From Escherichia coli (GTDB lineage Bacteria; Pseudomonadota; Gammaproteobacteria; Enterobacterales; Enterobacteriaceae): DNA of 64,000 bases. A program made the position numbers. Below, one piece after another: positions 56,501 to 59,500 of the stretch. Numbering within the stretch: the stretch's first letter is position 1; each line of letters opens with the position of its first letter. The stretch lies in the NCBI RefSeq assembly GCF_003018255.1, contig NZ_CP027440.1. One strand, written 5' to 3'.

Positions 56501-59500
56501 TCAGTCAGCCATTGTCAGCTAGACAATTTAAGCCTGGCGATCTGCACCCCTACCCCCTTTACGCTCACCGCCGACAGTGTGCAATGGATCGATTCAGTTA
56601 ACTGATCCGCCCACCCGACTGCCCATCTATTGATCCAGAACAGGTAATCAGTATGACGAATACTTAAAATCGTCATACTTATTTCCGCCATCTATTTTAA
56701 TCCATTGGGGTTACCATGCTCTCCACACTCCGCCGCACTCTATTTGCGCTGCTGGCTTGTGCGTCTTTTATCGTCCATGCCGCTGCACCAGATGAAATCA
56801 CCACCGCCTGGCCGGTGAATGTCGGGCCACTAAACCCGCACCTTTACACGCCTAACCAGATGTTCGCCCAGAGCATGGTTTATGAACCATTGGTGAAATA
56901 TCAGGCAGACGGTTCGGTGATCCCGTGGCTGGCAAAAAGCTGGACTCATTCAGAAGATGGTAAAACCTGGACCTTCACCCTGCGTGATGACGTGAAATTC
57001 TCCAACGGCGAACCGTTTGATGCAGAGGCGGCGGCAGAAAACTTCCGCGCAGTGCTCGATAACCGTCAACGTCACGCCTGGCTGGAGCTGGCAAACCAGA
57101 TTGTTGATGTCAAAGCACTCAGTAAAAACGAGCTGCAAATCACCCTGAAAAGCGCCTACTATCCTTTCCTGCAAGAACTGGCCCTGCCCCGTCCTTTCCG
57201 TTTTATCGCACCCTCGCAGTTTAAAAACCACGAAACCATGAACGGAATTAAAGCGCCGATTGGCACCGGGCCGTGGGTTTTACAGGAATCGAAACTGAAT
57301 CAGTACGATGTCTTCGTCCGTAACGAAAACTACTGGGGCGAAAAGCCAGCGATTAAAAAGATCACCTTTAACGTGATCCCGGACCCGACTACCCGTGCGG
57401 TGGCGTTTGAAACTGGCGATATCGACCTGCTGTACGGAAACGAAGGGTTATTACCGCTCGATACCTTCGCCCGCTTTAGCCAGAACCCGGCTTACCACAC
57501 TCAACTGTCACAGCCGATCGAAACCGTGATGCTGGCGCTCAATACCGCCAAAGCCCCCACCAACGAGCTGGCAGTACGTGAAGCTCTTAATTACGCGGTG
57601 AACAAAAAATCGCTGATTGATAACGCGTTGTATGGTACCCAGCAGGTCGCCGACACCCTGTTTGCCCCTTCTGTGCCCTACGCCAACCTCGGCCTGAAAC
57701 CGCGCCAGTACGATCCGCAGAAAGCGAAAGCGTTGCTGGAAAAAGCCGGTTGGACGCTGCCTGCAGGCAAAGACATCCGCGAGAAAAATGGTCAGCCGCT
57801 GCGCATTGAACTGTCGTTCATCGGCACCGATGCGTTAAGCAAATCGATGGCGGAAATCATTCAGGCTGATATGCGCCAGATTGGCGCAGATGTCTCGCTG
57901 ATTGGCGAAGAAGAGAGCAGTATCTATGCTCGTCAGCGCGACGGTCGTTTTGGCATGATTTTCCACCGCACCTGGGGCGCGCCATACGATCCACACGCCT
58001 TCCTGAGTTCAATGCGCGTACCGTCGCACGCTGACTTCCAGGCACAGCAAGGTTTAGCCGACAAGCCGCTGATTGATAAAGAGATCGGCGAAGTGCTGGC
58101 GACCCATGACGAAACGCAACGTCAGGCGCTGTATCGCGACATTCTGACCCGTCTGCATGACGAGGCGGTTTATCTGCCTATCAGTTACATCTCAATGATG
58201 GTGGTATCAAAACCGGAGCTGGGTAACATCCCCTACGCGCCGATCGCCACCGAAATTCCGTTCGAACAGATTAAACCGGTGAAACCTTAATGTTGCGTTA
58301 CGTATTACGCCGCTTTCTGCTGCTGATCCCGATGGTGCTCGCCGCCTCGGTGATCATTTTTCTGATGCTGCGCCTCGGTACCGGCGACCCGGCGCTCGAT
58401 TATCTGCGTTTATCTAACCTGCCGCCGACGCCGGAGATGCTGGCCTCTACCCGCACCATGCTGGGGCTGGATCAGCCGCTGTACGTCCAGTACGGTACCT
58501 GGTTGTGGAAGGCGCTGCATCTTGACTTTGGTATCTCATTCGCCAGCCAACGCCCGGTGCTGGACGATATGCTGAACTTCCTGCCCGCCACGCTGGAACT
58601 TGCAGGTGCCGCGCTGGTGTTAATTCTGCTCACTTCCGTACCGCTCGGTATCTGGGCGGCGCGCCATCGCGATCGTCTGCCGGATTTCGCCGTACGTTTC
58701 ATCGCGTTTCTCGGCGTGTCGATGCCCAACTTCTGGCTGGCGTTTTTGCTGGTGATGGCGTTTTCGGTATATCTGCAATGGCTACCCGCGATGGGCTACG
58801 GCGGCTGGCAGCACATCATTTTGCCTGCGGTTTCCATTGCCTTTATGTCGCTGGCGATTAACGCGCGGCTGCTGCGCGCCAGTATGCTGGACGTCGCCGG
58901 TCAGCGTCACGTCACCTGGGCTCGGCTACGCGGCCTGAACGACAAACAGACCGAACGCCGCCATATTCTGCGCAATGCCTCGCTGCCGATGATCACCGCC
59001 GTGGGGATGCACATTGGCGAACTGATTGGCGGGACGATGATTATCGAAAACATCTTTGCCTGGCCGGGCGTCGGGCGCTATGCGGTGTCGGCGATTTTTA
59101 ACCGTGACTATCCGGTGATCCAGTGCGTTACGCTGATGATGGTGGTGGTTTTTGTGGTCTGTAATTTGATTGTTGATTTACTCAACGCCGCGCTGGACCC
59201 GCGCATTCGTCGTCATGAAGGAGCGCACGCGTGAACTTTTTCCTCTCTTCCCGCTGGTCGGTACGCCTGGCGCTGATCATTATCGCCCTGCTGGCGCTGA
59301 TTGCGCTCACCAGCCAGTGGTGGCTGCCGTATGACCCCCAGGCGATTGATCTGCCGTCGCGCCTGCTTTCACCGGATGCGCAGCACTGGCTGGGTACCGA
59401 TCATTTAGGGCGCGATATTTTCTCGCGGCTGATGGCGGCGACCCGCGTGTCGCTCGGCTCGGTAATGGCCTGCCTGCTGTTGGTGCTGACATTAGGGCTG

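What the first reader, a model, noticed from the sequence alone, without database searches (positions are those of the whole stretch)
56630..56678. NikR operator (GTATGA-N16-TCATAC) intact although nikE appears frameshifted
The repressor gene and its operator are intact while a transporter subunit is apparently disrupted. If the frameshift is real, the regulatory circuit is conserved around a crippled transporter, suggesting either recent inactivation or a reversible on/off state.
Basis: partly seen in the sequence, partly recalled or inferred. Interest (0 to 1): 0.3.

Follow-up and report, generated by a model that had tools for sequence, protein, structure and literature searches.

The report
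Known NikR operator; private nikE frameshift
The site is the textbook nickel-repressor binding site of E. coli, and the "broken" transporter gene differs from otherwise identical public genomes by one extra A in a short A-run, so this is either a base-calling slip or a very recent mutation, not a regulatory circuit preserved around a dead transporter.

Summary
Both parts of the observation hold. GTATGA-N16-TCATAC occurs once, at 56651-56678, 38 nt before the nikA ATG (0.01 expected by chance). nikE (60825-61632) is 808 nt and is split by one extra A in an A-run (A6 at 61139-61144; relatives have A5). The operator is the canonical E. coli NikR site. The whole 110-nt acpT-nikA spacer is >=99% identical in 5198 of 5425 complete E. 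coli genomes, so "intact" is the default state. NikR and NikA-D are full length.

The frameshift is private to this sequence. It is absent from 5420 complete genomes, from a 153-billion-gene index and from metagenomes. Two near-clonal draft assemblies match 29.8 kb of the window with 0 SNPs, and the extra A is the only difference; the one that covers nikE has it intact. No evolutionary time has passed in which an operator or repressor could decay, so their conservation says nothing.

Sequence alone cannot separate a homopolymer miscall (I lean 0.55) from a very recent null mutation (0.40). A reversible switch is unsupported: the run is only 6 nt and there is no length polymorphism in the population. 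This is ordinary and already known, so interest is low.

The parts
56630..56643 (+). FNR-like box TTGAT-CCAG-AACAG. The left half is perfect and the right half matches 3 of 5. Its centre lies 41.5 nt upstream of 56678.
   Evidence: Read from the sequence. Fnr-dependence of the nikA promoter is stated in PMC9434800. Assigning this particular box is my inference from the geometry. No sigma-70 -35/-10 pair was found by the scan, as expected for an activator-dependent promoter.
56651..56678 (+). NikR operator: GTATGA (56651-56656), 16-nt spacer (56657-56672), TCATAC (56673-56678).
   Evidence: Exact and unique match, with 0.01 expected. The consensus is as published (PMC7055735). The 28-mer is identical in 13 of 13 fetched loci.
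56665..56670 (+). -10-like hexamer TAAAAT inside the operator spacer, so bound NikR would occlude it.
   Evidence: Read from the sequence. The role is inferred.
56716..58290 (+). nikA, periplasmic nickel-binding protein, 524 aa, intact.
   Evidence: ORF list. Same length and position as the annotated nikA in JNE23-011. No mismatches to L026.
58290..59234 (+). nikB, permease, 314 aa, intact. It carries V280 where JNE23-011 has F280.
   Evidence: The exact allele is found in 82 blocks of public assemblies.
59231..60064 (+). nikC, permease, 277 aa, intact.
60064..60828 (+). nikD, ABC ATPase, 254 aa, intact.
60825..61166 (+). nikE 5' fragment: 106 native codons (Walker A at 45-52, Q-loop at 93-96), then 7 out-of-frame codons and a stop.
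   Evidence: It matches Pfam ABC_tran profile positions 1-74 only.
61139..61144 (+). A6 run carrying the extra A. Close relatives have A5 (CGA AAA ACC) and most E. coli have A4 (CGC AAA ACC).
   Evidence: Alignments. There were 0 exact matches to the A6 66-mer in 5420 genomes.
61147..61632 (+). nikE 3' portion in the native frame: LSGGQ at 152-156, Walker B at 172-177, H-loop at 208-211. As an ORF it starts at a GTG with no obvious Shine-Dalgarno sequence.
   Evidence: It matches Pfam ABC_tran profile positions 80-136.
61637..62038 (+). nikR, 133 aa, intact (RHH DNA-binding domain and C-terminal nickel-binding domain).
   Evidence: Pfam PF01402 and PF08753. H76, H87, H89 and C95 are present. 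There is no nucleotide difference from JNE23-011 between 59127 and 62300.

Best explanation
The 28-bp palindrome is the canonical NikR operator of the Fnr-activated nikA promoter. Two GTATGA half-sites, 16 bp apart, bracket a TAAAAT -10-like element, so Ni-NikR would block RNA polymerase when nickel is sufficient. None of this is unusual, because the region is nearly invariant in E. coli.

The nikE interruption is one extra A in a 5-A run. It is private to this sequence and sits on a background otherwise identical to public isolates in which nikE is intact. I consider it most likely a homopolymer length miscall in the source assembly. In that case the organism has a normal nikABCDE-nikR system and there is no finding.

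Shown: operator identity and conservation; the position and uniqueness of the extra A; intact neighbouring genes. Inferred: the -10 and FNR geometry; that the extra base is an artefact.
For: Operator:
- Exact and unique match; the consensus is as published (PMC7055735).
- NikR repression and Fnr activation of the nikA promoter are stated in PMC9434800.
- The 110-nt spacer is >=99% identical in 5198 of 5425 genomes, and the operator is identical in 13 of 13 loci.

Frameshift:
- A6 against A5.
- L026 (GCA_012823595.1) equals window 48290-62795 with 0 mismatches and this single gap. L036 (GCA_028530625.2) equals window 1-15302 at 100.000%. That is 0 SNPs and 1 homopolymer indel in 29.8 kb.
- The allele is absent from 5420 complete genomes. 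The 113-aa product is absent from the gene index. Both metagenome hits for this allele carry A5.
- Between near-clonal genomes, substitutions normally outnumber indels (my general knowledge), whereas assembly errors are mostly homopolymer indels. An indel with no SNPs therefore favours error.
- A survey of 1106 prokaryotic genomes expected homology-validated singleton frameshifts to be sequencing errors rather than genuine indels (PMC3711429).
- The same run carries a different indel in a Logan run-assembly contig, and a 14-bp deletion lies at the same spot in a 3.5x-coverage metagenome contig.
Against: The window is not error-ridden. Against JNE23-011 over 64 kb, this is the only frame-breaking indel, and 29.8 kb are otherwise perfect. 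Any error rate is therefore low, and one real mutation is about as plausible a priori. A5-to-A6 slippage is also a common natural mutation type. The reads and the sequencing platform are unknown. My first supporting clue was a second "singleton" A6 upstream of yhhQ, but it proved to be a genuine lineage marker shared with L026.
Confidence: 0.55

Rival explanations
1. The extra A is a real, very recent loss-of-function mutation in this isolate. NikE is cut after residue 106, so the NikD-NikE ATPase pair cannot form and high-affinity nickel import fails. Cytoplasmic nickel stays low, NikR stays largely metal-free, and the nikA promoter runs derepressed under anaerobiosis. [NiFe]-hydrogenase activity then depends on nickel entering by low-affinity routes. 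The operator and nikR are intact only because no time has passed.
For: The frameshift is unambiguous in the sequence and splits the single ABC domain into profile halves 1-74 and 80-136, separating Walker A from the signature motif, Walker B and the H-loop. The rest of the assembly looks accurate, with 0 other differences in 29.8 kb. One-base slippage in a short A-run is an ordinary mutation. The lineage's synonymous CGC-to-CGA change had already lengthened the run from A4 to A5.
Against: An indel appears with no SNP at all in 29.8 kb. The allele is seen in no other genome, gene call or metagenome. L026, the near-clonal assembly that covers nikE (with 18 similar places not shown), has an intact 268-aa nikE.
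Confidence: 0.4
2. The A-run is a reversible on/off switch (phase variation by slipped-strand mispairing) that toggles nickel import, with the regulatory circuit kept ready for the ON state.
For: The frameshift lies in a homopolymer and a single-base deletion would restore the gene exactly. A different lineage shows a -1 change at the same run (A4 to A3, L028).
Against: The tract is only 6 nt. Published screening criteria for poly-A/T phase variation use at least 7 nt (PMC3711429). There is no tract-length polymorphism among 5420 complete genomes or in the near-clonal assemblies. The L028 and L027 variants are in low-quality contigs. NikE is a cytoplasmic ATPase rather than a surface or restriction-modification gene.
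Confidence: 0.02
3. The frameshift is real but leaky. A +1 slip of tRNA-Lys on the run (CG-A-AAA-AAC, re-pairing AAA to AAA), or RNA polymerase slippage, restores the native frame in a fraction of products, giving low-level functional NikE.
For: Simulating a +1 slip after the Lys codon reproduces the wild-type sequence ...NPRKTVREIL... exactly, whereas a -1 slip gives nonsense. Poly-A runs are slippery for ribosomes and polymerases (PMC3711429).
Against: No stimulatory element is evident. The frameshift is not conserved in any orthologue, which is the hallmark of programmed recoding. Transcriptional slippage is reported for An with n>7. Any leak would be incidental and probably well below 1% (my estimate).
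Confidence: 0.03

Closest known systems
E. coli K-12 nikABCDE-nikR operon with its NikR operator (GTATGA-N16-TCATAC) in the Fnr-dependent nikA promoter
   Same: Identical half-sites and spacing. Same gene order acpT-nikA-B-C-D-E-R. Same protein lengths apart from nikE. NikR has RHH and NikR_C domains and the H76/H87/H89/C95 nickel site.
   Different: One extra A in nikE (A6 against A5 or A4). Downstream of nikR is an rhs element, where other lineages carry yhhJ-rbbA, hicAB or a GntR/PTS cluster.
Singleton frameshifts in finished prokaryotic genomes (GeneTack survey, PMC3711429)
   Same: A single-genome frame transition in a gene with intact homologues everywhere else, located at a poly-A stretch.
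   Different: None of substance. That survey expected such cases to be mostly sequencing errors.
Homopolymer contingency loci (slipped-strand phase variation)
   Same: A frameshift in a mononucleotide run that a one-base change would reverse.
   Different: The run is too short (6 nt), there is no population polymorphism, and the gene class is not typical.

Membership tests
NikR operator (E. coli type) | Inverted 6-bp half-sites GTATGA / TCATAC | tested here: met
   Exact on both halves at 56651-56656 and 56673-56678. The consensus is given in PMC7055735.
NikR operator (E. coli type) | 16-bp spacing between the half-sites | tested here: met
   The spacer is 56657-56672, 16 nt.
NikR operator (E. 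coli type) | Located in the nikA promoter, overlapping core promoter elements | tested here: met
   The operator ends 38 nt before the nikA ATG. A TAAAAT -10-like hexamer lies inside the spacer. The overlap with the true -10 and transcription start is inferred, not mapped here.
NikR operator (E. coli type) | Cognate NikR (RHH domain plus nickel-binding C-domain) encoded in the locus | tested here: met
   PF01402 and PF08753 both score above their cut-offs. H76, H87, H89 and C95 are present.
NikR operator (E. coli type) | Nickel-dependent binding and repression | not testable with these tools
   This needs EMSA or footprinting, or a nikA-lacZ reporter.
Functional NikE ABC ATPase | One polypeptide carrying Walker A, Q-loop, LSGGQ signature, Walker B and H-loop | tested here: not met
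   As written, the reading frame ends after residue 106 plus 7 foreign codons. The motifs are split between two ORFs. The feature is met if one A is removed.
Phase-variable (contingency) locus | Hypermutable repeat tract of sufficient length (poly-A/T of at least 7 nt in the cited screen) | tested here: not met
   The tract is A6. The criterion is from PMC3711429.
Phase-variable (contingency) locus | Tract-length polymorphism among closely related genomes | tested here: not met
   0 of 5420 complete genomes carry A6. The near-clonal and related assemblies that cover nikE all carry A5. Both metagenome hits carry A5.
Programmed frameshift / recoding site | The frameshift is conserved across orthologues | tested here: not met
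   nikE is annotated as one full-length gene in all listed hits, and every locus examined was in frame apart from two low-quality contigs.
Programmed frameshift / recoding site | A slippery motif in the right phase to restore the frame | tested here: met
   A +1 Lys slip on CG-A-AAA-AAC restores the exact wild-type sequence. This shows it is possible, not that it is used.

The most novel reading that the evidence does not exclude
The extra A is real, and the A5/A6 run acts as a low-frequency reversible or leaky lesion. Either reversion by replication slippage or +1 tRNA-Lys slippage would let a subpopulation regain high-affinity nickel import, with the intact Fnr/NikR-controlled promoter ready to drive it.
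Probability: 0.04. Interest if true: 0.3.

Novelty: already known. Interest (0 to 1): 0.06.

Why it matters
It matters little. The operator, the repressor and the operon are textbook E. coli biology and are unchanged here. If the extra A is real, this isolate would be a natural nikE null, with predictable nickel-dependent hydrogenase defects. That is of local interest for the strain only. The practical value is as a quality flag: position 61139-61144 should be checked against reads before nikE is annotated as a pseudogene.

Tried and rejected
- A second private A5-to-A6 difference, at 52252-52257 just upstream of the yhhQ ATG, looked like evidence of systematic homopolymer over-calling, because it is absent from 5424 complete genomes. 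I rejected this: the near-clonal assembly L026 shares it, so it is a true lineage marker.
- I tried to retrieve the near-clonal lineage through the YhhQ, ZntA, YhhS and GlgB alleles. These alleles are too widespread, so the loci returned were other lineages. They were useful only as diversity controls. Only the NikB V280 allele and the fimbrial usher led to near-identical contigs.
- One search used the wrong end of a minus-strand gene (my coordinate slip) and matched only contig-end partial genes.
- The exact 113-aa product was not on record. The 161-aa C-terminal piece was found in two low-quality contigs with different lesions. Neither is the source.
- Literature searches found no report of a nikE frameshift. 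De Pina et al. 1999 (PMC93426) is not held, so nikR's own promoter inside nikE rests on my memory of that paper.
- A sigma-70 scan found no promoter at nikA, which is consistent with activator dependence but not informative. It found nothing convincing upstream of nikR either.
- Rfam found no RNA family at the locus.
- I could not identify the source genome of the window. It is not among the 5426 RefSeq complete E. coli genomes.

Full report
**Observation**

The pattern GTATGA-N16-TCATAC occurs exactly once in the window, at 56651-56678. That compares with 0.01 expected from shuffles. It ends 38 nt before the ATG of a 524-aa ORF that is nikA.

Downstream lie nikB, nikC and nikD at their annotated lengths. 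nikE follows as two overlapping ORFs, 60825-61166 (113 aa) and 61147-61632 (161 aa). After that comes an intact 133-aa nikR at 61637-62038. Both halves of the observation are therefore correct for the sequence as given.

**What the operator region is**

The half-sites and spacing are those published for E. coli NikR (PMC7055735). The nikA promoter is repressed by Ni-NikR and depends on Fnr (PMC9434800).

A TAAAAT -10-like hexamer (56665-56670) lies inside the 16-nt spacer. The FNR-like box is centred 41.5 nt upstream of position 56678. That is the geometry of an activator-dependent promoter whose -10 would be covered by bound repressor. The sigma-70 scan found no -35/-10 pair, which fits activator dependence. 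This layout is my inference from the sequence and was not mapped here.

The region is almost invariant. The 110-nt acpT-nikA spacer is >=99% identical in 5198 of 5425 complete E. coli genomes, and the 28-mer is identical in all 13 fetched loci that carry nikA. No second credible NikR site exists in the window. NikR has both Pfam domains and residues H76, H87, H89 and C95. An intact operator and repressor are therefore the default state in E. coli.

**What the frameshift is**

nikE here is 808 nt, against 807 nt in the relatives. The difference is one extra A in a run. The window has A6 at 61139-61144. JNE23-011, Rb-50 and the near-clonal drafts have A5 (CGA AAA ACC). Most E. coli have A4 (CGC AAA ACC).

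The frame breaks after codon 106, between the Q-loop (residues 93-96) and the LSGGQ signature (152-156). Pfam sees the ABC domain as two halves, profile positions 1-74 and 80-136. Removing one A gives a protein identical to NikE of JNE23-011.

**How private it is**

- The A6-containing 66-mer has no exact match in 5420 complete E. coli genomes. Every listed hit spans 65 bases.
- The 113-aa product is not on record among 153 billion gene positions.
- A metagenome scan that allowed either A5 or A6 on this allele found two contigs, both with A5.

Using the window's NikB allele (V280) as a handle, I found draft assembly GCA_012823595.1. It matches window 48290-62795 with 0 mismatches and one gap, the nikE A. 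Its nikE is an intact 268-aa gene, and 18 similar places were not shown. Using the fimbrial usher as a handle, GCA_028530625.2 matches window 1-15302 at 100.000%.

Across 29.8 kb compared with near-clonal isolates there are therefore 0 SNPs and one homopolymer indel. Against the closest complete genome (JNE23-011, 99.43% over 64 kb), this is the only frame-breaking indel in the window.

**Consequence for the interpretation**

The frameshift sits on a background with no substitutions at all. Essentially no evolutionary time separates this sequence from genomes with a working nikE. The operator and nikR could not have decayed in that time, so their integrity is not evidence of selection to keep a circuit around a dead transporter.

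**Artefact or recent mutation**

I cannot decide this without reads. These points favour an artefact:
- An indel appears with no SNPs. Substitutions normally outnumber indels between near-clonal genomes (my general knowledge), while assembly errors are mostly homopolymer indels.
- The allele is unique everywhere I searched.
- A published survey expected homology-validated singleton frameshifts to be mostly sequencing errors (PMC3711429).
- The same run carries a different indel in a Logan run-assembly contig, and a 14-bp deletion lies at the same spot in a 3.5x-coverage metagenome contig.

These points favour a real mutation:
- The window is otherwise very accurate.
- A5-to-A6 slippage is an ordinary mutation.
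- The lineage's synonymous C-to-A change had already lengthened the run.

One early clue for systematic error collapsed. The A6 at 52252-52257 upstream of yhhQ is absent from 5424 complete genomes but is shared with the near-clonal draft. It is a true lineage marker.

I put the artefact at 0.55 and a real recent null mutation at 0.40.

**If it is real**

The mechanism follows from established knowledge of the system. Without a complete NikE, the NikD-NikE ATPase pair cannot energise NikBC, and high-affinity nickel import is lost. NikR remains mostly nickel-free, so the Fnr-activated promoter stays derepressed anaerobically. Hydrogenase maturation then depends on nickel entering by low-affinity routes.

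The premature stop could also reduce read-through transcription into nikR. From my memory of De Pina et al. 1999, nikR also has its own weak promoter. That paper is not held in the library, so this point is unverified here.

**Reversible switch or recoding**

A one-base deletion would restore the gene, and a +1 slip of tRNA-Lys on CG-A-AAA-AAC would reproduce the wild-type protein exactly; a -1 slip would not. Even so, several observations argue against a switch or a programmed event:
- The tract is 6 nt, below the 7-nt poly-A/T criterion for phase variation and below An with n>7 for transcriptional slippage (PMC3711429).
- There is no length polymorphism in the population.
- The frameshift is not conserved in any orthologue.

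I give these readings about 0.05 in total.

**Verdict**

This is a known operator in a known operon, and the nikE lesion is a private single-base homopolymer difference that needs read-level confirmation. It is ordinary, and interest is low.

Noticed in passing
window 52252-52257: An A6 run lies 9-14 nt upstream of the yhhQ ATG, in the Shine-Dalgarno region. All 5424 complete E. coli genomes have A5 there, but the near-clonal draft GCA_012823595.1 shares the A6. It is a lineage-specific change that might alter yhhQ translation initiation.
   Followed up: partly
window 24177-24241 (-) and 24487-24832: RyhB sRNA scores 83 bits in Rfam. Just beside it, the yhhY gene is a strongly divergent allele block compared with JNE23-011, with dozens of mismatches and compensating indels. 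The A-run at about 24184, within the RyhB match, differs in length (A8 against A7) from locus L033.
   Followed up: no
window 877-6896 (-): A chaperone-usher fimbrial operon (usher of 864 aa, two chaperones, several fimbrial subunits) lies next to glgP. It is present in some E. coli lineages (JNE23-011, L035-L037) and absent from others at this position (L033, L034).
   Followed up: partly
window 1-64000 compared with NZ_AP045067.1: The identity to the closest complete genome is mosaic. Positions 1-14464 show 0 mismatches, 14465-24955 and 51729-54428 are dense with mismatches, and 30281-51728 shows only 3. This is the pattern expected from recombination blocks.
   Followed up: partly
window 62240-64000 (+), and loci L002, L008-L024: The junction downstream of nikR is variable. 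In the window and in JNE23-011 an rhsC element follows. Other lineages carry yhhJ-rbbA directly, a hicAB toxin-antitoxin pair, or a GntR/PTS cluster.
   Followed up: no
loci L009, L013, L016, L017 (about 14090-20666): In some E. coli, a cluster follows yhhT directly: methyltransferase, ketoacyl synthase, acyltransferase, two acyl-carrier proteins, an AMP-binding protein and a FabA/ApeI-like protein. It looks like an aryl-polyene cluster and occupies the position where acpT-nik lies in the window.
   Followed up: no
window about 35093-35688 (-): A Phd/YefM-Doc type II toxin-antitoxin pair lies between ugpB and livF, as annotated in the collinear JNE23-011 record.
   Followed up: no
L027 784-1269; L028 1626-2111: Two unrelated low-quality contigs also have a split nikE. 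L028 has a one-base deletion in the same run (A4 to A3). L027 has a 14-bp deletion at the same spot and is a 3.5x-coverage, error-laden contig. The exact 161-aa C-terminal ORF of the window is called in both.
   Followed up: partly
window 25117-26786 (+): A 392-aa gene annotated as TssD (type VI tube protein) in the relative is followed by yrhA. It stands alone, with no T6SS cluster nearby, and is unusually long for an Hcp-type protein.
   Followed up: no
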